This document shows positions 3,201 through 64,000 of a DNA stretch of 64,000 nt, in pieces. The position numbers were made by a program, and so were the translations under genes. Source of the DNA: Podarcis cretensis (Eukaryota); the NCBI GenBank assembly GCA_951804945.1, contig OX638161.1, forward strand, positions 29,698,001 to 29,762,000, given 5' to 3'. How positions within the stretch are numbered: the first letter of the stretch is position 1; the number at the start of each line of letters is the position of its first letter. The notes under the pieces are model-generated. The model searched no databases. It was not told the DNA's origin and saw only the letters and a program-made list of their open reading frames with translations.

Positions 3201-6200
3201 GAAAGGGAGTACTGAGGGGTTTTGTGTGAATTGCTGTAAACGCTCAAAAAGTGTTATAATTGCAACGGCATATTTAAGAACCTGCTGCTGGTGACAAATC
3301 AGAAGAAAGTGTGGCTTTGGCTTTGACTCTCCTTGCTCCATTGCACTGTATCCTAATAGCAGGGTTTTCAAATTTTCCTTCAACAGGGACCCCTTTTTAA
3401 AATTTCTTTTTTTTTGGCAAGAACCCCCTTGCCTTGTTGGCATGGGTGTGGGAGCAGCTTCTATGGCCACGTGCTCAGTTCATGTAGATATTTGCCAGTC
3501 TTGCTTGGGGGCTTCACCTCCTTGTGGGAACTGGGAATGTGTCATGGAGCACAGCCTTGGGCCTGCACTTTGCAGAGGAAGACAGTGGTGGGAACACAGG
3601 CATTCCTGTTAGTTACGAGTCGGCCTTCAGACATGGCCATGTAACTTTCACAGGAAGTTAATCACCATTAAGTGTCATCTTTGCCATTCGAAACTGCTGC
3701 TCAGACTTTTCCTTCTCCCACCACAAAGCTGTCTAGCTCACTTTCTTTTTTTCTCTTCCTGTTCCTTTTGCTACAGGATAGCAAGCAGTAACAACATGAA
3801 CAAATCCGAGAGTGACCAAGAAGACAACGACGATATAAATGATAATGACTGGTCATATGGATCCGAGAAGAAAGGTAAGACAAGGAAGGGGTTTGGCAGC
3901 GTATTATTTATTCTGTTTATAAATAGCATATTCTGTACTGTTTTCTGGCTTACAACAATAAAACCTCAAAGGAAAGGGTGTTCAAATAATACGGATAAAC
4001 CAAACCATAACTTGACGAAAACGGGAATGATTTACAGATGGAACAAAAGAAATTCCTTTAGGTGGGCAGCTAAGGCAATAGAGGAGGGACCGGTCTAACA
4101 GATGCAGATGTTGCTGAACCACAACTCCTGCCATCCCTGACAATGGACCATGTTAGGGCTGATGGGAGTTGAAGTCTAGCAACATCTGGATGGCCACAGG
4201 TTCCCCATAGGCCTCTGTGGCCTGCGGGAGCATGTAGCCCAGTTCAAAAGTTGTCCATTTGCATCACGTGTTTGGCTTTATAAAGAAAGCAGAGGATGGG
4301 GGAAATACCCTGAAAACACTAGACAGAACAGGGTTTGTTCTCCCCCCCCCCCCCAAGATTGGTAGGCCAAGGCTTTATCATGTTGGTGAATATCATCATT
4401 TTACTTAGAATATCATTGTGCAGCATTCTGTCTACAGTGTTTCCCAAACTTGAGGTCTCCAGCTGTTTTTGGACTACAACTCGGATCATCTCCAGCTAGC
4501 AGGACCGGTGGTCAGGAATGACAGGAATTGTATTCCAGAAACAGATGGAGACCCAAGTTTGGGAAACACTGGAAGGTTTTGCGGAAAGCATTTGTCAGAA
4601 CTGGCCCTTGAGCTAACAGAGACTGTGCTTTGTTCTTGGGGTGTTTTGTTAAAGTAGTCTCGTCTCTTTTCCTTCCTAGCAAAAAAGAGAAAATCAGATA
4701 AGGTAAGACCATCCTTATGCATACTGGCGCAGTTAAATGAGATGTACCTTTTCTAACTTCTTTTGCAAAGAGCGGTCAGTACAGGAGAAAACTTGAAAGA
4801 CACACATCCCTTGTGCATGTGAGCAGACCTGCTGATTTCCCTCAACTTTCTCGATCTTAACCTATATGCTGAATGTTGCTTGCCGAATCTTGGGAGGGTC
4901 GGGGGAGGCTGTTGATAGAGAGGGCTGCATCCTTTGGAATGGCCTGGTGGTAGATTTTACTCACACTTGTTCTGATTGGCAGCTTCTCAGGAGGATCCCC
5001 TCCAGCAGCTTGTTGAGTGATTCTGGTCCCCAACTCTGTTGCACAAAGATCCTGTAAATATACTTCTGTGTACCTGGAGGCTTCTTTTTAATTTTTTACT
5101 GCTAGACAGCGCACCTGCTCTGTTGGTTATGGCAAGGAGTGCTGGGCTTTTGGGGCTCGATAACTGTGGCCATTTGACCACTGCATTCCTTTGATGTCAC
5201 TTTTCTTTTCCTTTTTTAAAAAAATAAATTTTATTAGGGTTTATAGAGAAAAATACATAATTTAATATCAAACATATTTCCCCCTCTTTTTTTTTGTCCA
5301 AACTAAGACTTTAAATATAGTAAAAACATAAAGAGAAGGGGGGAGAGTGAAAGGAATAAAGAAATAGAAATAGAAAAGAGGTTAAGAAAGAGAGAGAGAT
5401 AGAGAGAAATAAAATTCAGAAGGTAAGGGACTTCTGATTCTTCATCTCTCAGCTATATATAAACAATATTCACTTCACCCACTCTAATATAATACCCAGC
5501 AAAGCCACTTTCCATAAACAAATATTATCTTCAATCCTCAAATCCAAATGTCATTATTTCATGTTCTTTTCACTCCAAAAGCCTATGGGAGTTTTCCAAT
5601 CTTTTAACAAATGTTAGCAACAACTTTTCCCTGATTAAACATGTCAGTTTCGCCATCTCCACTAAGTCCGTTAGTTTTAACAGCCATTCTTCCATTGCTG
5701 GTAACAATGGGTCCTTTCATCTTTCTGCATATAAAAGTCTCGGAGCCGTAATCGTATATTGAAGCAAAGTTCCATAGTCCCCTCTGATGACATTTTTCAA
5801 GGTTAGCAGTAAGGTGTGTTTTTTTTAATGACCTTTGCTGCTCTTCCCCTTTTGTTTCAGAATCCCAACTCGCCCCGACGATCCAAGTCCCTGAAACATA
5901 AAAATGGTGAGTGCATTATGTGTGTTGGTTCTCTTTCCGTCCTTACACACTATAGCAGCATTTCCTGGGCTCCTTAAGCATACTTCTCTGTGTTAATTAA
6001 AATCTGGCATCCAAGTAGATTGGGGTTGACAGGGAAAGGCGTAGTATGGAAGGCCTTTAAATTGGTCTGACAGGTAGGGAGAGAAGGTTTTTTAAAAACC
6101 ACACACACACACACAAAATTTGGAAGTTTCAAATGGGGCCTAATACACCACATATGTGGCTATCTGGGATGATGATTGTGTGTGTAGCAGTTCTTTAGAC

Positions 6201-40100: not shown

Positions 40101-43100
40101 CATTTTACAGAATTTGCTGACAAAGTTTTAAAAGAGAGAGAGAGAGAAAGAGAAATCGGCACTAGAGCAGTGGAAATACTGCATCAAAATACACTTCAAA
40201 ACTCACCTATGTAAACTAAAGAAAATAGGAATTTAGGCAATTTTTCCAAGTTAATTAGGATGCAGAATTTGCTAAGTGTGGGAAGAGGAAAGGACCTATG
40301 CAGGGCCAGTCCCACCCCACCCTGCCCCCACATTTTAACAGTTAATACATCGCATATGGCTGCCAATCTTAATGAAATACAGCATCCCAGTAATTAAGAA
40401 CAAGTGCCTCCATACACTTTTTTTTTAAAAGTATCCAGAGTACACATAGCCTCTCCTATATCCTAGCAATTGTGCCAAGGAGAGCCTGCTCCTTACCTGT
40501 GTTGGCTCCATCTGCATTCCTCCCTCAATCTCTTGGCATAACTGAGGGGTCTTCTCATTGCTGAATCCCGGAGGATATATCTTCACCAAATTACTGGGTG
40601 TCACATTGAGGTAGTGGTTGCGATAGGATGGGGAGAACACACCCACCTGTGAAACCCAAGGTAGGTATCAATACTGCCTATGGTACAAGGCACAATTGAC
40701 TATACTTTAAAAAATAAAAAAATAAAAATAAATACAACAATAGAGGGGCAGATGTTTCATCGCTGGGAAGGGGTAGTTCACAACCAAAGAATGAAATATA
40801 CAACCCAACTTCTAAAAACAATGAGGGAGATAATACTATTTAATTGGTGTCCTGGACCAGCTCATCTGAATGCAAGAGGTTTGAATAAAAGTGACACATA
40901 CAATCTCCAGAAGTAAGATGGACTAAGTGAGTCTCTAGAGCAAAGAATTCTAAGACACCTTTCTACATATTCTCATGGACCTCATTTAGAGCACCCAGAT
41001 AATAGTAAAGAAAGCTCTCTGGGAGTAGAAGGAGGAAGATTCCACCATCCAATGGACAATCTTTGGTAGATGGTTCCTGACTTGTCAGTTCTGCTTTCAA
41101 CTGACATTGGTTGCATCTATTTGACACAAAGCTAGAAGGGGTAACTTGTTTTTGTTAACTTGTGTTAATCTGGGGGTGATAACTGCACCAGCAGGGGCAC
41201 AAACAAGCAGAACTATCAGTCAAAAATGTCTGGATCCCCTGTAGTAGAAGGTCTTAAATACCAGTTATTCGTTATAATTTTTTTGCATGGAAATTAAACC
41301 TCACCCAGCCCTTGATTTCTTGTTTTCTAGTACCTGCTTTAGCAGAAGCACTGAACCAGCCTTAAATTCACTTTGTTTCTCCTCCAGCAACAGGCGATGT
41401 ATTGTGCCCTGCATTTCTCCTGCATGACAGAAGGCCAAACCAATCAGGTACAGGAGCACTAAATATACAGTGAAGTCAAAGAGGAAACACATGAGCGTCA
41501 CACACCAATAGCTCTCACTGCCCTTTATACAGGAACACAGAGATGGGAGGGAGAGCCCAGCGAAGGAAGGGTCCCAAGCACTCAACACCAGCCACATAAT
41601 TTGCCAGTGACCTGGAGCAAAGAACAATTGGTCCCAGGCAAATGCACATATCAGCCCCACCTAGGCTTAGGACTTCTAAGGACAACCTCAGTGTTGCCTG
41701 TTTATTCCTTGTGATGGTCAAATGAAAACATATCCTAGGAAGTCAAGAATGTGGTTGTGTAGGGAGTGGCAACTAAAACAAACTATACTGCAGAGGCTTG
41801 CAGTGAATGTTTATGCATGAGAGTTAAGAAGCAAACCATCCCAAATGGCCTACTTTTTTTTTTAATGCCCTGTTAGTATTACCTGGTAGCATAGAGCACC
41901 AAGGTTTCAAACTATGCCCACAAAAAATTGGTGCCAAAATATCAGTCTGCAACCTCAATGTGCATTTGTGGGACTAGCTCAACTGAGAACTTGCCTCAAT
42001 ATTTGCTGGACTGCTTGTTCCCTGGCAGATGTTGGATTTAAATCGGGTGAGGAACCTTTGTCCCTCCAGATGTTGCTGAACTACATCTCCCATCAGCCCC
42101 AGCCGGCATGGGCAATGGTTAGGGATGATGGGAGTGGGAGTTCAGCAACATCTGGAGAGCCAGAGGGTACCACTGGGAGTCAAAGCTGGAAAATGAACAA
42201 AAAGACTACTGCCAATATAAATTGTAACTGGAAATGCCAAGGATTAAATTGTGTTTGTATTTTTTTGTTTTGTTTGTGTTTTTGTTCGGTGCAAGTTGCT
42301 TTTTACCCAGTCTTCTTTTTTTGTTATTGTCCATGCAAATATGTTTTACATACGTATTTCCAATAGCAAAGGGAAAAAAGCTTAATTAATATTTGAGCAG
42401 TCCATTGAAAACTAACTCCCTCCAGCCATTGCCTTTCTTCTTGTTTCACTTCTGGCTTGAGAAGCCAGCCTGTCTAGGCAATTCTCCCTCCCAATACCTA
42501 TTCACAAATTTTGTTTAGGCACCTAAAACATTTTACTTAAGAATTTGAAACATTTGTCCAATTCTTTGCTGGCTCCAAAGAAGTTTTTTTTTTTTTTTTT
42601 TTTGAAAACCCCATGTCACAACTATCCAGTCCCTTTCCCTCAATCTAATGAAAAGACAGCACTCTCCCTCTCCATCCTTCACCATCAACACAAGGGGTCA
42701 GCAAAACACACAGATTTGCTCAGGGCTATATACAAGCTCCATTGTTAGGCTAGTGGAAGCCCGTGAAACAATTCCCAGTAGCACAATGTGCCTAAAGGAC
42801 TGTACCATATTTAGTCAGAGTCAATTCAAACACCCAGAAATGAATCAGACGGTGGTCATTAACAAACAAGGTTTGCCCAGACACCACAGGCAAAGCAGAA
42901 ACGCCCCACCAATAATGCATGCAGAAGAAGTAAGTCATGACACTGAACTCTTTTCATCCTTACCAGTAGGGTCTTTGAACACGGCGCCCGCGTCAACGTT
43001 GGTCTGCATTACCGACTTAATCATCACGGCCATGTTAGGAACCTTGTTCTTTGGGAGCTGCTTCAGGGCTGCCTGCATGAAAGAGAATAAGCAAGGGAAA

Positions 43101-46100: not shown

Positions 46101-49051
46101 TATTTTATCATTTTTCTATATTATTAATTTCATTAGCATTGTTTTTCTAAGCCACCACAGAGCATTTTATCAGCAAAGCAGAGCAAAAAAGTTATTTCAC
46201 ATGCAGGCACCCCAAGAAGCATTCAGTGTATTCATATAAGGAGGCAATTAGTAATCTCCATCACTAGGACAACCATATAGCAGCCATTTTGGAGCAGAGA
46301 AAACTTAGGGAGGATGGCAGCTTTTATGCTCCTTTTGTGACATACAAGTGTGGGTGGAGTGGAGGAAATAAAGTAATAATATTTCACAACACACATATAC
46401 CGTATTTTTCTGTGTATAACACATCCACGTGTATAACACGCCCCCTATTTTGAGGGACTCAAATTTATGAAAATGGGGAAGATGACCCCCGTGTATAAGA
46501 AGACCCCTGTTTAAAAACATTATGGTAAAGGTAAAGGGAACCCTAGCCGTTAGGTCCAGTCGCGAATGACTCTGGGGTTGCGGCGTTCAACTCGCTTTAC
46601 TGGCCGAGGGAGCCGGCGTACAGCTTCCAGGTCATGTGGCCAGCATGACAAAGCCGCTTCTGGTGAACCAAAGCAGTGCACGGAAACGCTATTTACTGCT
46701 GGAGCGGTACCTATTTATCTACTTGTACTTTGACATGCTTTCGAACGGCTAGCTTGGCAGGAACAGGGACCGAGCAACAGGAGCTCACCCCGTTGCGGGG
46801 ATTCGAACAGCCAACCTTCTGATCGGCAAGCCCTAGGCTCTGTGGTTTAAACACTATTTTAGAGTAAAAAACCTAGTCTTATACATGGAAAAGTACGGGT
46901 TCCAAAGCATCCTCACTCCTTTGTACATACAGCAGGGGTGGCTAACCTGTGACTCTCCAGATGCTGCTGAACTGCACCTCCCCTCAGCCCCAGGCAACAT
47001 GGCCAATGGTTAGAGCCAAAGGTAGCTATAGTTACTATCTAGACAGCCATACACTCCCCATCCCCAACATAAAGATTGCCCTATTATCATGCTGGTCCTC
47101 TTACTTGATGTGGCAGAATGCCAGCAGGTCCTGGGAAGCGCCGCATCTTAGCCCGCAAAGGAACTTGGGTAACTGGCTCTGGCATCTTGTTGGCTGCTGT
47201 GACCAAACGGACAAGGTGATTGGTGACCACAGGTGACTGGAGGTTTCCGGGAACTTTAGGGTTGGCAGGTGAAGTCTCCATAGAGGTTGCTGGGGGACCA
47301 TATGCAGAAAGCAGCTGAGCACCAGAATTGGCTGTTCTGGACACAGAGCAGCTCTGATTGGGCATCCATGGTTTGTGTGGCCTTGTTGGGGTACTTGCTG
47401 ACTGAAAAGAAGAGCAGGGTCTAACCAGAGGCAAGCATGGGCTGTTGGATGCGGCAGTGGGTTTTTGCAGAGATGCCTGGAAAGGCCTGAGCACCTGGCA
47501 GCTGGAGTTTGAAAGGGCACATGTGCTGCTACTTAACCCTAGGCGAGACTGAGACAAGGAAGCTTCCACGGCAGGAGGCCTAAAAGGCAACTTTGGAGAA
47601 GTCTCTGCCGGCTGGAGATGGCTGATGACCTCTACCACGGGTTGTTTCCAAGTCTTTTCCAACTTTGAGGTCTCTGACCCAAAAGAGTCAGTCAATGCCA
47701 ACGAATCAACCACTCGTGGTTTCTTCGCTGTTGCTACACTATTATCTCGCATTTGCTCCCAGGACATACAGTTGGACCTGAAGGACCCCGGATATGACTG
47801 TGTATCAGACTCTTCCAGATCCATGCACGCAGCCAATACAAGCTCGTTGTCAATTTCCTCATTGCAGGGGGCACCCCCAGTGGGGAGCTTAGCTGGAGGC
47901 TGCTTCACAAACCTGAACCTTGTGTCTGAAGTGCCGCTCGATTTACATTCAGTTGCAGTGGGTGCCAGGTCCTTCTGAACTGTGAAGCTGGTCGCCAGAG
48001 GAGTCTTCTGGTTGCTTTTGACATTACCTTCTCCAAACCTTAGTCTGGAGCAGTTTTGCACCTGCAAGACTGGGGACATGGTCACCCTTGGCCCCTCAGA
48101 GACCGGAATGGTGGTGCTGGGGGCTCTCAACCCAGTTGAGAGGGGTCTAAGACATCTTGAGCTATCTGTAGGTGGATCCAGGGCTTGCTTCTCCACATCA
48201 TTCACAGCTGACAGAAAATCCTACCAAGAACAGAGAAACAGAATGCTTGTCATGAGGTGCCATCCCTCAGCTTTGTACTACATGAACATTGTGAGCCTGA
48301 GAGCCCATGAGGGCTTAAGGGTATCTTTTGTTTGCCATTTGGCCAACAGAGTTCTTCCATCCAAAGTCACATGTCCATCTGAAGTCGTCCAAAGTACACT
48401 TCGGCCAATAAGTAGAAACCTTTGCCCTCTCCACCACACCCAGATTCACAAATATTCTCTTACCTCATCTTCAAAGTCTGCCTCCACAGCAAATAGCTTC
48501 TGTAGACCACAGGCCTGTTGGGTGAGGGGGAGAAATAATAACTTAAAAAAATTATTCTATACTACCTGAATTATTCTAGCTACATGCAGTTTTTGTTCCA
48601 TCACAAGTCTGAGTGGGGTTTGGGGGTTTGTTGTTGTTTTGGTACACCACTTTAAGTGTCTCTTTTGGCTGAAAAAAGGAGAATCCAAGCATTCTAAACA
48701 AATAAATACATAACAGGCTTGCCCTTTTTTTAACCTGACCATCTTCCACCCACAAGGAAGAGTTTTGAGATATTCAAAAGACTGCCTGATAACTTTAACG
48801 TTATTACTATATCTTGCATTGTGTTAAAAACAATGTTTCCCGGGGTTTGAGGGGAGTGTAATAGCCTCGTCAGTCTGCTGCAGCAAACACAAGAGAGTCC
48901 TGTGGCACTTTACAGGCCAACCCCCTTATTATGGGCTACAACGTCATGGGCTACAGTCCTGCTGCATGGGCTGTGGCTATGTGTTTATAAGGCATTTGTC
49001 CTCCCTCTGGACTGCCCTCCTCCCCAGTCCCTCCTGCCCCTCTATTACCAT
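37148..49051 (-). CDS. HROB: Homologous recombination OB-fold protein (C17orf53/MCM8IP); 10 coding exons, ~677 aa
   Basis: complement(join(37148..37221,38501..38720,40497..40646,41334..41419,42964..43072,44030..44170,45204..45287,47105..48220,48464..48514,49049..49051)) = 2034 nt. Starts M|ACGLQKLFAVEADFEDE|DFLSAV. Conserved RRFPGPAGILPHQ and FGRGPW motifs. OB fold KVPNMAVMIKS...FKDPTGEMQGTIHRLLL...VGVFSPS..NHYLNVTPSNLVKIY. C-terminal DDLDQLLGELPDDFF. Exon 1 (contributes only the ATG, ccacgATG|GTAAT) and the exon 9 boundaries are the least certain parts. Confidence 0.92.
39281..39522 (-). mobile_element. tRNA-derived SINE, Squam3-like
   Basis: Reverse-complement homologue of 396-640. Confidence 0.8.
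45500..45886 (+). mobile_element. L2-type LINE 3' fragment with (TACA)n tail
   Basis: Highly similar to 9220-9570. Confidence 0.75.
46400..46898. mobile_element. Tc1/mariner MITE (CCGTATTTT TIR family) interrupted by a Sauria SINE
   Basis: TA-CCGTATTTTTC...GGAAAAGTACGG termini. An uninterrupted relative lies at 52695-52863. Confidence 0.7.
46524..46850 (-). mobile_element. Sauria SINE nested in a Tc1/mariner MITE
   Basis: GGTAAAGGTAAAGG tail and reverse-complement SINE body inside the element at 46400-46898. Confidence 0.85.
48862..48960. mobile_element. Penelope-like element fragment
   Basis: GTCTGCTGCAGCAAA...GAGTCCTGTGGCACTTTA...GGGCTACAGTCC resembles reptile Penelope terminal repeats as I recall them. 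Confidence 0.45.
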
Positions 49052-49089: not shown

Positions 49090-49650
49090 GTGTGAAGAAA
49101 CAAGGACGACGCAGGGATGCAGCGAGAGAGGGAAGTCCAGCATCCAGGCCCGCACCTCCGCTCACCGAGCTCTGCATTCGAACTGGCCGCCTCAAAGATG
49201 ACGAGCCGCCCAGCCCCCGCCCTTCTTCATTGCACCTGCGCAATAGCGCGTTCTCTCCCTGCCCACAAAAGGGCAAACGCTTCGTTTCCTTGACTACACA
49301 AGCGCCTAGAGCTTTCGCCCACTCAACCCCCGCCCGGTCGCCATAATACGGCGCTCTTCTACTACGTAAGCAGGGGCTGAGTTGGCGAAAGCTCTAGGCG
49401 GTTGCGTAGCCAAGGAAACGAAGAGTTTGCCCTTTTGTGGGCAGGGAGACAACGTCAGCGTAGTAGAGCGCCTGTTCTCGTTTTAGGCAAGGAGGGGATC
49501 GTCAACGTTTTTTGGCAGCTTGTTAAAATAACCTCGTTTGTCTTTAGCGCGCAGGCGCCAAGCTTCCGCGGCTCGTGTCCGTTCTCTGTCTGAGGGGGAA
49601 AGCGTGTTTCTCCCCACACGGACGTAAATAAGACCGTTGGGAAGAGGTCG
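49090..49650 (-). promoter_or_regulatory. HROB CpG island/promoter
   Basis: CpG-dense region directly upstream of the ATG exon. E2F-like TTTCGCC at 49313 and inverted at 49384, NRF1-like GCGCAGGCGC near 49549, YY1-like CGCCAT at 49339. Confidence 0.75.
49249..49454. repeat. 82-bp inverted repeat with 42-bp spacer
   Basis: 49249-49330 is the reverse complement of 49373-49454 at 75/82 positions with no gaps. Confidence 0.95.
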
Positions 49651-56890: not shown

Positions 56891-59800
56891 TTAGAATTTC
56901 CTCTTTATTAACTGCTCCTTACTGTTCAGATAGGGCCTCAGCACAATAATGTAGCATTTGGGAGCAAAGATGGAACCCAGCAAGCCAGAACTAGAGGCCA
57001 AGATGGAGAAGATCTCCACAGCCACCATGTATTTTCCTTTGGTGCTCAAGTAAACTGGAACAAAGGATATCCAGACACTACAAAATACTAACATGCTGAA
57101 AGTTATAAATTTGGTCTCATTAAAGCTGTCTGGCAGTTTCCTAGCTAAAAATGCCACAACAAAGCTGACCATAGCCAGGAAGCCCATGTAACCAAGAACA
57201 CAGTAAAACATGGTGACGGACCCTTCATTACATTCCAGTATCATTTCTCCCACCGTGGAGTGCATGTCAAGATGGGGGAATGAGGGAGAGGTTATCAGCC
57301 ATACAGTGCAAATACCTGCTTGGATAAGAGAACAAGAAAACACAGTGGTGCCTGCCAGTCTTTTCCCCACCCATTTCCTCATTATGGATCCTGGTTTAGT
57401 GGCCATGAAGGCCAGAACCACGGTGATGGTTTTGGCCAGCACACAAGAAACGGTCACTGTGAAAATGACAGCAAAAGCAACTTGTCGGAGAAGGCAGATC
57501 ACTCTTTCTGGTGGGCTAAGGAAGAGCAAAGGGCAGAGAAAGCAGAGCAGGAGGGAAGTGAGGAGAGCGTAGGTGAGATCCCGATTGTTGGCTCTGACGA
57601 TTGGCGTGTCCTGGTTTTTAATAAAGATGGCTAGAACCAACACTGTGAGCATAGAGAGAGAAAGAGCCAAAGAAGCCAAGCTCATCCCTAGATGCTCTTT
57701 TATAGACAGGAAGATTATTGCCTTTGGAATGCACTGTGATTGGCCTTTGTCTGGATATCGATCTTCACTACATCTGTTGCAATTGTCCATGTCTGGAAAA
57801 AGAAGAGATGCAGGTTCTGGGTGTGCCGGACAGAAACTGTCTATTACATCCTAACATTAAACTGGAGTACCAAAAGGATTCCTAGACAGAACAAATACAC
57901 CTTTGGACCAGAAATCAGCATAATTTGCTGGGTTGTCTGCCTATGTTATGCTAACTTCCCAGGGGCCACCATCTGTTGTATAGATTGCTGCGGAGACAAT
58001 GATGTTTGACGATTTTAGAACATTTATAGTGGAGTGGCTCCTTCAGACATATATTCAATCTCCCATGCATTAATCATAAAGTGGTAGATACATTTAGGGC
58101 AGAGTTCTACCAACTGCTTGATTGCAAGCTTCTCTTCTATTACCTCACTCTCTTCTAAATCAGACTATCCAGATGTTTAGGTCCCCATCAGAGATCCTCC
58201 TCCTTATGTCTCCTCTGAAACAGGTTTGGAAGGTGGCATCAAGGGAAAGGGGCTTTTCAATGGTGTCCCTCGTTTATGGAACGCTCTCCCCAGAGAGATT
58301 CACTTGGGGCCAACTTTGACATAACTTCGGTGCTAAGCAAAAACATTTTTGTTTCCCATGGCATTTGAATGTTGATGTCATTGTTCTTGGGATTGAGTTG
58401 AAGGTGTAGATTATTTTGTGGTGATGACGTCATGGTTGTGGGAGAAGACACTTGTAGGTTGGGTATGCTTTATGTGCTCACCAGCTTGCATTATTGTTTG
58501 TTAACTATGGAATTTGTCTGCATTTATATTTCCTATGTGCTATTTTAAATTGTTCATTCACCTAAGAAATCTTCTTAAAAGGTGATTCATACATTGAATA
58601 ATTAATAATAATATTAGTAAGTCCTATCCAAATTCACTGGATGCATTCCTGTGTAAGTTATCTTACGGACCCATCCTCAGTTATCTCCTGCTGCATAACA
58701 CACCAGAAAATGAGGGCGAAATTTCGATTTCTGAAAAAGTTTAGATAAACTGTAGAAATGCTGCCAAAAGAGACCAACACCATTCAAAGTAAGTGGTAAC
58801 CTCTGATTGATCATCAATAGGAGTCCCATGCAGATCACATCACTAGGGTGGGGAAAGATGGCTTCTAACTTAGAATCAGAAGGAATATCATAAAAAGATA
58901 CTAGTTGGGTTTCTGAGTGTTGCTCCAATAAGATATGAAAATTTATACAATTATTACCATTGAAAGCCTCAAGCTTCTGAGCTTCAGCTATTATAGAAAG
59001 AACAATGGCATCAATGATTGGCTCATTTTTTGCTGAAACCGTATGTTACAATGTGCACTGTCTTTGAAGTATTTCTTGTCTCTTACCCTTTTGGGATGAA
59101 ATCTTGCCTTGAGGGCATGGAGAACAATCATAGCAGCAGAATTTCTCCCCCTCCTTCTTTTTCTTGCTGGAGCCAGGAGGGCAATTTGGGTTACATGTAG
59201 AAAGGGGTGGAACCTGTCAATTTGAATAAACACACGAATAGTTTATCACCGAGAATAAAATAACAGATGTAAACTCAAGGTGTGTTGTGTGGGGTTTTTT
59301 TGAGAAACTTGTTTCAGGTTTTTTGGGTGATTGAGGTTTGATTGACTGATTGATTTCAAGCAGTTAAATGGTTGGAATACATTGGCTACATTCCTATCAA
59401 ATACTGTATGGATATAAAGTAGCTTGTACATGATGAGGTTTTAGACAGGATTAAGAGTTGCTGATGGTCTCCATTGCCAATGGGACAAAACACAGATTTT
59501 TAGTAATGCAGCAGCAAAATTGTGTACTTTTTCATAAAAATACTAATTTTACATCATTTGTAGCTTAATGTATACTAATCATTTTATGATATAGAGGCAT
59601 GTGATGTTGCATGTGTATGCATGCACAGCCAGTTGAACGCACAGTGGCTTATAACAGTGTTATGATTTTTTAATATAAGCATTAAATTTACAGATTTATA
59701 GACATAGTGATAATTTTCATATATGGAAACATGGTGTTCTAGGCTTCCATAATTACGGGTTCAGGATTTGAGTTATGCAAGAAGTGCCCCAAGACTGCTA

Positions 59801-62800
59801 TCCATTTGCTCTGTTTTATTAGTTGGTGCAATAATATTCAATTTCCCTATAGAGCCTGGAAATCGCAGTTGTGCCCCACCTGCTTAAAGCTTCTGTGCCA
59901 CACCATTTTTTCATCATCAATTGAAAATTCCTTGCCTGTGGGAGCCTCCAAATCTATTTTTCCAAACTTGGCTCTCAGGAAGCAGTTATTTGGAAAAATG
60001 ACAAAATTGGTAATATCGAATCCATTCTTCAATTCCAAACTCTCACCAAAAGACACTGTTTCTCCCACACTGTTGTTAAATGAGACACTCCTAAGAAAGG
60101 GGTGGAGCTGAGTAGAAAGAGGAACAGAAGGACAGGAACAATTGATTAAAACTCGAACATCTCTCAGATCTTTTCCACACACAATTATTTCCAGGGGAGG
60201 GAACTTGTTAGATTGAAGCTTTTGTTGGCAGTTGAAAGATGAATGAGAAAATAAACAAGTGCTAGTCTCCAAACCCAAGCATCTCTGGGTAGGGCTGCAA
60301 GTGACTTTTTCCTGGAATGCATGAAAGTCACAGTAAGTGTGAACAATACTGAATTTGATGTTCTTAAAGATCTTATTTAGTATAGGGTAAGGTAAAGGTA
60401 AAGGTACCCCTGCCCGTACGGGCCAGTCTTGACAGACTCTGGGGTTGTGCGCCCATCTCACTTAAGAGGCCAGGGGCCAGCGCTGTCCGGAGACACTTCC
60501 GGGTCACGTGGCCAGCGTGACATCGCTGCTCTGGCGAGCCAGAGCCGCACACGGAAACGCCGTTTACCTTCCCGCTGGTAAGCGGTCCCTATTTATCTAC
60601 TTGCACCCGGAGGTGCTTTCGAACTGCTAGGTTGGCAGGCGCTGGGACCGAGCAGCGGGAGCGCACCCCGCCGCAGGGATTCGAACCGCCGACCTTTCGA
60701 TCGGCAAGTCCTAGGCGCTGAGGCTTTAACCCACAGCGCCACCTGCGTCCTTTAGTATAGGGTAGCTTCCTATAAAAGGGACGCAGGTGGCGCTGTGGGT
60801 TAAAGCCTCAGCGCCTAGGGCTTGCCGATTGAAAGGTCGGCGGTTCGAATCCCTGCGGCGGGGTGCGCTCCCGCTGCTCGGTCCCAGCGCCTGCCAACCT
60901 AGCAGTTCGAAAGCACCTCCGGGTGCAAGTAGATAAATAGGGACCGCTTACCAGCGGGAAGGTAAACGGCGTTTCCATGTGCGGCTCTGGCTCTGGCTCT
61001 GGCTCTGGCCAGAGCAGCGATGTCACGCTGGCCACGTGACCCGGAAGTGTCTCCGGACAGCGCTGGCCCTCGGCCTCTTAAGTGAGATGAGCGCACAACC
61101 CCAGAGTCTGTCAAGACTGGCCCGTACGGGCAGGGGTACCTTTACCTTTACCTTTTAGCTTCCTATAAAGGCACTGCTCTATATGCCCCTGGGTTGTCAT
61201 TCCTCTGCTTATATCAATAGAGTTGAGTCTCAAGAAAGATATTACCTGCCAAGGCTGCAGATTTGGAAGCACCCACCTCCCTTTGTCTTCCATAGTTCTG
61301 CGTTTGTACCTGGTTCGGAAAATGGCATGTAAAGCATGTGCTACAACATAGACTGCATTGTAGATGCTGTAGCTGTGGCCAATCATGCTCGTCTCAAAGC
61401 CAGATGAAGGGAGATCTTCAAGCTTCTCCTTTCCAGTGCAGATTTTATTAACCTGCTTCTTTGTCTTAGAACTTGGAAATGAACATCTGAATGCTCGTTC
61501 CCAGAACAACTTGAGAAAAATGTCTTCATTGGTCCCCAGAGTATTTATGAGCTGAAGAAATGTTCTGAATCCTTGAACCTCTTTTGAATGAACCCTGAAG
61601 GAGATGGAACCGTGGAAGGCTTCCATACTTAAGGTCATTTGGTAGAAGAATTCTGTAAACTCCAGCTGAGCAGTCATGATCCACACCTTTCCTACTGGTG
61701 TATTTGCGCCATTTGTTATTTCACCTATGATGAGCATTGTTCGTAAACAAAGCATGGACTTGGTTTCTCCAAAGACAACAACAGCACTGGCTTTGCTCTC
61801 CGCAATAACTTTGTAGATTTGGAGCCACTTGAGACTCAGAGAAAATAAAATTCTCCAGTATGTGTTTTTTGGAGTTCTCTCTGAGAAAGCAAAGCAGATG
61901 CCTCTCTGGGAAAGCAGAAGTTGCATGGACTGCAAAAATCTCTCCCCGCTCTCTCCCTCTATAGCGATAAACCCAACCCACGTCCATCCAAAGTGCAGAA
62001 GCAACTGAGCAATGCCAGTGTATTGATGGGCTTCGTTTGGAACCATCCGGTAGAAGGGAGTAGACTGGACTTGATCACTGTCTTCTGGAGCAAAGGAGCC
62101 ATAACTGAGCTAAAAATAAATAAGGAAGCATATTATGTCAATGTAATAGAGGGAATTGCTACATGCATCTGTAGTGAAAGGGCAATTGCGATTGGGATTC
62201 ACCTCTCCTGCTAGGCCAAAGTGTCCAGGATGGAGCAAGTTGATTTGATAGCATCACTGCAAAATTAGTGCATCTTGAATGCAAAGATATTCCTGAGAGT
62301 GGAGTGTGGTCCTAGTATAGTGGATTTGTGGCTTGTGAAATATTTCACGTAACCAAGAATGTTTACTGGAGATTTGTTAAGAGTGCAAGAATTATAGCTC
62401 TGTAACAGATCTCCTAACAATTCTCAGCATGCCTAACAAGCTACAGTTCTCAGGATTCTGAGTGTTAAGGTGGAATAATAGTGCTTTAACTGTATAGTGT
62501 GGACGTGATCTTTGTCTCTCAGAACCGGAAAACTTTTCTGGGTAGAAAAGGAAAATGCAAATGACTCATGAAGCTACCTGTATCTTACCTGTGGAGTCTT
62601 GTAAACACCCAGGATGGCTGCCATATGGAGAGAGGTTTCAAAGTCAAGTCCCCCAATGACACCCAACAGACTTTCCTGAGTGTCACACTTGTAGTTGGGA
62701 ACAAATTTCTGCTGTGTGAATAGAAGCTCCAGAGTTGCCCGATAGGTCATCCTTTCATTGTAATAACTATCGTAGATGTGAAATCCCAAGGTGATATTTG

Positions 62801-64000
62801 GCAAGATCTCAGGATTCTCATTGATCTCCTTGACAGCAAATACCAATGCCAGAATATGCTGGTAGTTCTTTGGCACAACCCTGCAATGAGAGTTACTTGA
62901 TACTGAGTTACCAGGTATGCTAGGCATTGTGTGACATAGAGATGGGTGAATCTGTCTGTTTGGGTTTCTCTCCATTTCTCTTTCCCCCCCAATCTTAAAT
63001 TCTGTTTTCAATCGCATATAGGATATATGTTCCAGATTCAAACCAATACTCAGTTTTTGGCAGGCAAAGATATAAATATGGGTGGATCTCTCAGTTTTGA
63101 TTTCTCTCTGTTTCTCATTTTTCCAATCTTAAGTTTACATTCTGATATCAGTTTGTGATTTTCAAAAAAAAAAGGCCACCAGCATTTTAGTGCAAATTTC
63201 TCCTAATATTCATATTTTTGTACGCAGTTCTGCCCAGTGTAAACATTTTTGCAAAGTGATGTCTTTAGATATAATGCATTTTTAAATGTTAATTCACTAA
63301 AATATGCATTGTTATGTACACTTTACCCTTGTATGCATTACTTGACTGGAGAACTGCACTGCAAAATTTGGAAAAGTTTGAAGATCAAGGGATAGCTGGG
63401 TTCAGGTTTACATATTGTTTCATTACTGTTAAAAAGATAGGTTCATCTTTAAAAGAGAGCAGAATGGAATTTCCCCACCACCACCCTTACTTCTCTCACT
63501 CATGCACAGATATCCATCTCTCTCTGCTTCAAACTGCATTAAAGAGTATTGGTCTTCATTTCTGTGTAAACAGGGTTAAAAGGTAAAGGGACCCCTGACA
63601 ATTAAGCCCAGTCACGAACAACTCTGGGGTTGCGGCGCTCATCTCACTTTAAAGGCTGAGGGAGCCGTTGTTTGTCTGCTTCCACAGACAGTTTTTCAGG
63701 GTCATGTGGCCAGCATGACTAAGCTGCTTCTGGCGAAACCAAAGCAGCTCACGGTAAACAGGGTTAGGATTTGGATATTAATGAGCATCAAATAAAGTCC
63801 TTACAATACATTAAGTAATTGCTGGAAGGTGTGGTATTTCTTGAAGTCTTCCCAGTTAAGAGAAGGAAAGAGATGAGAAGTAAGTCCACCAATGATCAGG
63901 TCACCTGGCTGATAATACTTGTGTGGAATATGGAATGGGTCACTGATGGTGCACGTACTGATCATTTTTCCATTACATATCATCCATGGAAGCAACAAGA
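56891..64000 (-). CDS. Vomeronasal type-2 receptor (V2R, class C GPCR, Vmn2r26-like); 5' end truncated by the window
   Basis: complement(join(56891..57792,59087..59213,59880..60107,61246..62109,62589..62880,63805..>64000)), the six-exon V2R layout, with no stops or frameshifts seen. VFT motifs [11 protein letters not shown] and [30 protein letters not shown]. Cys-rich [15 protein letters not shown]. 7TM motifs [13 protein letters not shown] and [16 protein letters not shown]. Confidence 0.95.
60390..60750 (-). mobile_element. Sauria SINE, full length, young
   Basis: CpG-rich intact copy. TSD TTTAGTATAGGGTA at 60376-60389 and 60751-60764. Confidence 0.92.
60778..61155 (+). mobile_element. Sauria SINE, full length, young
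   Basis: CpG-rich intact copy. TSD TAGCTTCCTATAAA at 60763-60776 and 61156-61169. Confidence 0.92.
63575..63755 (-). mobile_element. Sauria SINE, 5'-truncated
   Basis: Only the tail AAGGTAAAGGGACCCCTGAC and the 3' half are present. Confidence 0.8.

What the first reader, a model, noticed from the sequence alone, without database searches (positions are those of the whole stretch)
49249..49454. Long near-perfect palindrome forms the core of the HROB promoter
Seen: two ungapped 82-bp arms (49249-49330 and 49373-49454) match at 75/82 positions around a 42-bp spacer inside the CpG island, ~200 bp upstream of the HROB ATG. I see no TSD and do not recognise it as a TE. Each arm carries an E2F-like TTTCGCC and an ACTACA-like half-motif, so promoter motifs are mirrored. 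Three of the 7 mismatches are A-C on the plus strand, which become G-U wobbles only in the minus (HROB-sense) RNA. Inference: this could be a duplicated symmetric/bidirectional promoter, a cruciform-forming site, or a long 5'-leader/pri-miRNA-like hairpin regulating a recombination-repair gene.
Basis: partly seen in the sequence, partly recalled or inferred. Interest (0 to 1): 0.72.

Follow-up and report, generated by a model that had tools for sequence, protein, structure and literature searches.

The report
Copying-slip palindrome beside lizard HROB promoter
A real, single-copy 206-base DNA palindrome sits just upstream of a lizard's DNA-repair gene HROB; its junctions suggest it likely arose in one old DNA-copying slip, related lizards show its halves drifting apart without matched changes, and the gene's predicted control site lies outside it, so it is likely a mutational scar, not a regulatory hairpin.

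Summary
The inverted repeat is real: 75/82 matches, single-copy, spanned by single contigs in 3 of 4 independent runs, so neither a MITE nor an assembly fold-back. Relatives show 85-bp arms with four old mismatches; later changes broke 7 pairs, added 2 indels, restored 1 pair and compensated none. Arms vary as often as flanks (8/170 vs 19/555 sites, p=0.49). A CDE/CHR (DREAM) site at 49191-49177, GC boxes and the start codon lie between palindrome and gene, so the core promoter likely sits outside it. No RNA data were obtained; start site and expression effect are untested. Local inverted repeats are common here (99 in 1.85 Mb); this is the longest of 12 without another copy in that sample. 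The scan noted similar template-switch promoter palindromes in other genomes, not this locus. Verdict: large, well-preserved example of a known mutation type.

The parts
49249..49333 (+). Left (gene-proximal) arm; inferred original promoter segment and template of the copy
   Evidence: best 9-mer match across its two junctions only 5/9
49334..49369 (.).
49370..49454 (-). Right (distal) arm; inferred inserted reverse-complement copy
   Evidence: bracketed by the 9-bp direct repeat
49364..49372 (+). First copy of 9-bp direct repeat (window ACGTAAGCA; 49372 is G in X7, X9, X14); its last 3 nt are the inner-junction microhomology to 49331-49333
49452..49460 (+). Second copy of 9-bp direct repeat (window ACGTCAGCG; 49456 is A in X7, X14); its first 3 nt are the outer-junction microhomology to 49249-49251
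   Evidence: 7/9 window, 9/9 X7, 8/9 X9, 8/9 X14
49350..49366 (+). 5' side of a small hairpin split by the inserted arm (9 perfect pairs 49358-49366 with 49459-49467, then a bulge and pairs 49350-49354 with 49468-49472)
   Evidence: a perfect 9-bp stem centred in a given 9-nt span occurs in 245 of 195858 background spans
49459..49472 (+). 3' side of the same small hairpin
49313..49320 (+). E2F-like TTTCGCCC, 7/8 to the recalled consensus TTTSSCGC; mirrored at 49383-49390 as a consequence of the duplication
   Evidence: consensus recalled
49177..49191 (-). CDE/CHR tandem (GGCGG, 4 nt, TTCGAA) in HROB sense orientation; predicted DREAM site and likely core promoter; no difference listed in any of the 4 runs laid
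   Evidence: (5 such tandems in 1.05 Mb); TTCGAA is a tested CHR and CHRs lie on or near the start site (PMC4176359); mouse Hrob has a tested bipartite DREAM site (PMC10581385)
49206..49222 (-). Two GC boxes (GGGCGG at 49211-49206 and 49222-49217)
49049..49051 (-). HROB start codon, last three bases of exon 1, followed by GT donor; exon 2 at 48514-48464, exon 3 from 48220 down
   Evidence: exon joins read from sequence, not from RNA

Best explanation
The palindrome is a real single-copy inverted duplication whose right arm was likely made in one old replication template switch, and it is likely drifting with little or no selection for pairing, upstream of the predicted core promoter of HROB. 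Inferred steps: the growing plus strand stopped at 49372, just past the loop of a small hairpin; its last three bases paired with 49331-49333 across a 36-nt loop; the polymerase copied about 82 nt of promoter DNA backwards to 49249; it then rejoined the template about 9 nt behind the stopping point, duplicating 49364-49372 (switch order 3-2-4-1). The small hairpin either pre-existed and helped the stall, or is a second short fold-back from the same 3' end. The event is roughly 3 times as old as the split between the window and X14 (range about 1.6-6.5). The long spacer and mismatches likely make it harmless enough to persist. Its only likely effect on HROB is a passive second copy of upstream motifs; cell-cycle control likely runs through the CDE/CHR site at 49191-49177.
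For: Shown: single copy; present in 4 of 4 runs, in one contig in 3 of 4; direct repeat 9/9 in X7 (chance of a 9/9 best match between random local 15-mers 0.00017), at the junctions of the right arm only; split hairpin, background 0.13%; arms 81/85, 80/85 and 79/85 paired in relatives against 77/85 here, each lineage with its own breaks, no double compensatory change, arm versus flank variable sites 8/170 vs 19/555, p=0.49 (with indels p=0.28). From papers: events with point 4 before point 1 leave an insertion with a direct repeat, copied length median 12 and maximum 128 in apes (PMC7954356); the same process builds promoter repeats with arms of 10-48 bp in yeast (PMC13100816); spacers of 9-12 bp already abolish detectable fork pausing in yeast (PMC8053094). 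11 other repeats without a second copy in 1.79 Mb show the process is not special to this locus.
Against: No outgroup without the insertion was seen, so the pre-event sequence and direction are reconstructed. In the window alone the direct repeat is 7/9, which chance gives in about 5% of trials. Only five haplotypes and 10 arm events: power to detect moderate constraint is low. The outer 44 pairs (49254-49297) show no pair-breaking change after the common ancestor, and X9 has one restored pair (49279/49424, inferred from contig breakpoints); both fit weak constraint or arm-to-arm conversion, though the split is post hoc. No RNA or chromatin data. In yeast such promoter repeats can change expression (GRE2; abstract).
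Confidence: 0.72

Rival explanations
1. Same template-switch origin, but the copy has been co-opted: the mirrored arm doubles E2F-like and other upstream sites and tunes HROB expression, so sequence (not pairing) is under some selection.
For: Fixed in all five haplotypes inside a CpG island about 60-280 bp from a predicted DREAM site; HROB is a DREAM target in mouse; a yeast promoter repeat expansion raised GRE2 expression; template-switch events are enriched in TF sites in apes.
Against: Arms are no less variable than flanks; the right-arm E2F-like site has changed in the window's lineage (49383); the motif is only 7/8 of the recalled consensus.
Confidence: 0.14
2. The stem works as RNA: either a minority upstream-started HROB transcript or, more plausibly, a plus-strand upstream antisense RNA folds the arms into long double-stranded RNA that is diced or edited.
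For: -158.5 and -178.5 kcal/mol folds; template switches have created new primate miRNA hairpins (10.1101/2023.04.19.537475); outer 44 pairs unbroken in relatives.
Against: No compensatory change; 6 of 11 mismatched pairs are wobble on neither strand, plus 2 indels; stem of 85 bp is far from the about 35 bp preferred for pri-miRNA; no Rfam family (best E 0.26); a leader with this hairpin and four upstream ATGs would block scanning (recalled, Kozak); CHR sites mark the start site.
Confidence: 0.07
3. The arms are kept similar by repeated arm-to-arm copying, so the repeat is older than it looks and acts as a self-correcting hairpin or cruciform site.
For: X9 collapses 49254-49292 with its partner into one 39-nt contig at double depth, implying a restored pair at 49424.
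Against: One restoring event against 7 pair-breaking substitutions and 2 indels; one restoration among 10 events has about 15% chance by point mutation alone (hand estimate); long GC-rich spacer disfavours structure.
Confidence: 0.05
4. Relic of a transposon: the 9-bp direct repeat is a target-site duplication or the arms are terminal inverted repeats of a MITE.
For: 87 of 99 local inverted repeats in the sample have other copies; 9-bp duplications are typical of Mutator-type elements (recalled).
Against: No other copy by DNA search or by a 22-mer with 2 mismatches or in 1.05 Mb by sensitive BLAST; the bracketed segment is a copy of DNA 36 nt away and has no terminal repeats of its own; no duplication around the whole palindrome or the left arm.
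Confidence: 0.02

Closest known systems
Short-range template-switch mutations, four-point model, '4 before 1' events (Walker et al. 2021, PMC7954356)
   Same: Nearby segment inserted in reverse complement, short direct repeat at the junctions, hairpin potential in the reconstructed ancestral site.
   Different: Copied length about 80 nt against a median of 12 (maximum 128); GC-rich CpG island, whereas ape events are enriched near poly(dA:dT); old and fixed across several lizard species; ancestral state not directly seen.
Template-switch inverted repeats in yeast promoters (Rozenfeld et al. 2026, PMC13100816)
   Same: Inverted repeat within about 200 bp of a start site that mirrors factor-binding motifs.
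   Different: Yeast arms 10-48 bp, perfect and polymorphic, mostly replacements; here 85 bp, an insertion, decaying, in a vertebrate; no expression test here.
De novo miRNA hairpins from template switching (Monttinen et al. 2023, 10.1101/2023.04.19.537475)
   Same: One-step creation of a fully paired hairpin.
   Different: Those lie mostly in transcribed introns and have miRNA-sized stems; this lies upstream of the predicted start and is over twice as long; no small-RNA evidence.
CDE/CHR (DREAM) cell-cycle promoters (PMC4176359; mouse Hrob in PMC10581385)
   Same: GC-rich element, 4-nt spacer, TTCGAA, sense orientation, GC boxes upstream, in the HROB orthologue.
   Different: Predicted only; positional orthology with the mouse site not checked (supplement unreadable).

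Membership tests
Template-switch inverted duplication (3-2-4-1) | Inserted segment is the reverse complement of nearby DNA | tested here: met
   77-81 of 85 pairs, 36 nt apart
Template-switch inverted duplication (3-2-4-1) | Direct repeat at the two junctions of the insert | tested here: met
   9/9 in X7, 8/9 in X9 and X14, 7/9 in window and X3
Template-switch inverted duplication (3-2-4-1) | Ancestral sequence lacking the insert, seen in an outgroup | not testable with these tools
   All 4 runs laid carry both arms; no distant lizard genome is held
MITE / non-autonomous DNA transposon | Dispersed copies | tested here: not met
   Only the two arms; the DNA search skips very common words
MITE / non-autonomous DNA transposon | Target-site duplication around the whole element | tested here: not met
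   Flanks of 49249-49454 are not a direct repeat; the repeat brackets one arm only
Assembly fold-back artefact | Absent from independent data; arms identical | tested here: not met
   One contig spans it in X3, X7, X14; arms differ with lineage-specific changes
Conserved RNA hairpin / pri-miRNA | Compensatory changes or conservation above flanks | tested here: not met
   0 compensatory, p=0.49 arms vs flanks; few events, low power
Conserved RNA hairpin / pri-miRNA | Known family | tested here: not met
   No Rfam match near a gathering score
Conserved RNA hairpin / pri-miRNA | Transcript spanning both arms and discrete small RNAs | not tested
   No RNA data obtained
Bidirectional gene-pair promoter | Divergent gene within about 1 kb | tested here: not met
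   No plus-strand frame of 110 aa or more starts between 49202 and 54996; next gene is a minus-strand family-3 GPCR ending at 56891; a short-exon or non-coding partner is not excluded
Cruciform-extruding palindrome | Short spacer (under about 9 bp), near-perfect arms | tested here: not met
   36-42 nt spacer, 91% arms; threshold from yeast work; extrusion itself not testable
CDE/CHR DREAM promoter | CDE, 4-nt spacer, CHR in tandem | tested here: met
   49191-49177 minus
CDE/CHR DREAM promoter | Position at the start site and DREAM binding | not testable with these tools
   Needs CAGE and ChIP

The most novel reading that the evidence does not exclude
One replication slip gave these lizards a new regulatory module at a recombination-repair gene: the mirrored arm doubles upstream sites or turns the promoter's upstream antisense RNA into an 85-bp double-stranded stem that is diced or edited, with the outer 44 pairs held by selection or arm-to-arm copying. 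It would be a dated, base-resolved birth of a vertebrate promoter element by template switching.
Probability: 0.15. Interest if true: 0.65.

Novelty: new member of a known kind. Interest (0 to 1): 0.3.

Why it matters
It is an unusually long and cleanly readable vertebrate case of a template switch inside a CpG-island promoter: all four switch points can be placed, the copied arm identified and a relative age given. It offers a natural test of whether such events rewire vertebrate promoters as reported in yeast (delete one arm and measure). It also shows how a z-score of -19 and strand-biased G-U wobbles can mislead: a few relatives turn them into recent point mutations. If neutral, it is one of probably hundreds of such scars in this genome and of modest interest.

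Tried and rejected
Rfam: two chance-level matches. Earlier notes on look-alike stretches: none; same-genome notes concern transposons and do not bear on this. CpG-island enrichment of single-copy repeats: 2 of 11 (HROB left out) against 4.6% background, about p=0.09 by hand, not significant. Wobble bias: 4 minus-strand against 1 plus-strand wobble among 5 transitions, p=0.19 one-sided by hand; 2 of the 3 derived ones are at CpG; rejected. Higher constraint on the outer 44 pairs: 1 event in 88 nt against 21 in 555 flank nt, post hoc, not significant. ZNF143-type reading of ACTACA: the recalled TCCCA half is absent. Absolute dating: seen as a listing only, nothing taken. Mouse Hrob site position: supplement too large to read. 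A paper for the scanning-block threshold was not obtained; that point is recalled. Paper searches for this locus or a squamate promoter palindrome (listings only) showed none. Of the 14 runs holding half the words or more, 4 were laid.

Full report
1. Observation. The arms 49249-49330 and 49373-49454 match at 75 of 82 positions without gaps and extend to 85 bp around a 36-nt spacer. Folding is far beyond shuffles on both RNA strands and as DNA (z -14.6, -19.5, -15.3; 0 of 200 shuffles each). The repeat lies in a CpG island. The gene below it on the minus strand is HROB: two exon frames match PF15072; exon 1 ends in ATG at 49051-49049 followed by GT, and exon 2 (48514-48464) continues in frame (read; likeness of this N-terminus to human HROB is recalled). 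Downstream lie an ankyrin-repeat gene and a ubiquitin-domain gene (the names ASB16 and TMUB2 are recalled). Upstream, the next gene is a family-3 GPCR (vomeronasal type-2-like, label recalled) on the same strand, ending at 56891, so no head-to-head coding partner was seen.

2. Not a transposon, not an artefact. A search of G000 with the 226-nt stretch finds only itself and its mirror; a 22-mer with up to 2 mismatches finds only the two arms; sensitive BLAST against 1.05 Mb finds nothing under E 3. Of 14 runs that hold half the words or more I laid four, from four studies and four organism labels: the whole stretch lies in one contig in X3, X7 and X14, and in four overlapping pieces in X9.

3. 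How unusual. In 1.852 Mb of G000 (window included) there are 99 ungapped local inverted repeats with arms of 25 or more, 85% identity or more and spacers up to 100; 87 have another copy in the sample, 12 do not. Nine have arms of 80 or more; only this one lacks another copy. One more of similar size (L123, 62/66) has no copy in the sample. Leaving out the selected window, 1 such case in 1.79 Mb extrapolates to hundreds per genome, with very wide limits; 'no copy' is relative to the sample. So it is the upper tail of a common class.

4. Relatives show decay. Counting by position (one search's table): window and X3 77/85 pairs; X7 81/85 plus one insertion; X9 80/85 plus one insertion; X14 79/85. 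Four mismatches are old (49253/49450, 49279/49424, 49293/49410, 49302/49401). At 49298, 49372 and 49383 all three other organisms carry the pairing base, and at 49326 two of three, so the window's lineage has lost pairs. X14 and X9 have their own breaks (49329, 49452; 49310). In all: 7 pair-breaking substitutions, 2 indels, 1 restored pair, no compensatory double change. The restored pair (49424 in X9) is not in the table; I infer it from a 39-nt contig at double depth and one unlisted difference in each of two pieces, and it is included in the counts. Variable sites: arms 8/170, flanks 19/555 (Fisher p=0.49; with indels 0.28). Against my reading: the outer 44 pairs have no later break, and power is low. 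Four old mismatches over 170 sites against 17/761 between window and X14 give an age of about 3 times that split (1.6-6.5, Poisson, equal rates, no conversion; by hand).

5. Origin. 49364-49372 and 49452-49460 form a direct repeat around the right arm: 7/9 in window and X3, 8/9 in X9 and X14, 9/9 in X7; chance of a best match of 9/9 between random local 15-mers is 0.00017, of 7/9 or better 0.049. The left arm has no such repeat (5/9). The repeat's ends overlap the arm ends by 3 nt, giving microhomology at both junctions. The DNA on either side of the insert pairs with itself: 9 perfect pairs (49358-49366 with 49459-49467) plus 5 more beyond a bulge, which would be a hairpin with a 4-nt loop before the insertion; such a stem is centred in 245 of 195858 background 9-nt spans (4 of 1838 in CpG-rich DNA). 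Walker et al. describe events where point 4 precedes point 1: they appear as one insertion and leave a direct repeat; copied lengths have median 12 and maximum 128 (PMC7954356; passages and part 2 of section 8 read). The pattern here is order 3-2-4-1, compatible with a fold-back of the growing plus strand. This is inferred; no outgroup without the insert was seen, and the small hairpin could be a cause or a second product.

6. Where the promoter is. Between palindrome and ATG lie two GC boxes and GGCGG-4 nt-TTCGAA in sense orientation at 49191-49177, one of 5 such tandems in 1.05 Mb, with no difference listed in the four runs. TTCGAA is a tested CHR, among the three commonest, and CHRs lie on or very near the start site (PMC4176359, passages). 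Mouse Hrob has a bipartite DREAM site whose mutation removed p53-dependent repression (PMC10581385, passages; its supplement with positions could not be read, so orthology of the site is unchecked). The start is therefore predicted near 49190-49130, which leaves the palindrome upstream. A leader holding both arms would carry a -178 kcal/mol stem and four upstream ATGs, which should block scanning (recalled). No RNA data were obtained, so this is untested. An upstream antisense RNA, common at CpG-island promoters (recalled), is the likelier way the stem could be transcribed.

7. Other readings. Cruciform: in yeast, fork pausing and nuclease attack fall away once the spacer passes 8 bp (PMC8053094, passages); here it is 36-42 nt, which also explains why the repeat is tolerated. 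miRNA: template switches have made primate miRNA stems, with about 35 bp preferred (10.1101/2023.04.19.537475, part 1 of 4 read); this stem is 85 bp, with no Rfam match. Co-option: yeast promoter repeats of 10-48 bp arise this way and one changed expression (PMC13100816, abstract and first part of Results); possible here, unsupported by conservation.

8. Novelty and score. The mechanism is known. Listings of three searches showed no paper on this locus. The scan's notes list template-switch promoter palindromes in algae, bacteria and viruses (unchecked). This is a new, long, well-resolved vertebrate member: interest 0.3. The boldest reading left open, a co-opted regulatory or double-stranded-RNA module, gets probability 0.15.

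Noticed in passing
window 60389-61154: A 766-bp palindrome made of two near-identical (94-98%) copies of an abundant SINE-like repeat (79 other hits in 1.05 Mb) facing each other 22 nt apart in an intron of the GPCR gene; closely spaced inverted repeats this similar are usually unstable, so it may be a young fold-back or an assembly matter.
   Followed up: partly
window 56891-63128: A vomeronasal type-2-like receptor gene (7tm_3 and ANF_receptor domains) lies directly upstream of HROB, where mammals have HDAC5 (recalled): local gene order differs.
   Followed up: partly
window 49049-49051: The HROB start codon is the last three bases of exon 1; ATGs at 49177 (31-codon frame) and 49143 lie upstream in weak context.
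   Followed up: partly
L123:2290-2435 (G000:C15): Another long inverted repeat (62/66, 14-nt spacer, extends further with a gap) with no second copy in the 1.85-Mb sample.
   Followed up: no
L146:2578-2730 (G000:C2): CpG-island inverted repeat (27/31) with an 8/9 direct repeat at the junctions of its right arm, possibly the same template-switch footprint, though low in complexity.
   Followed up: partly
window 42055-42166, 4435-4571 and many loci: A very abundant family of 110-160-bp self-complementary repeats accounts for most local hairpins in this genome (37 of 40 strongest in 1.05 Mb have other copies).
   Followed up: no
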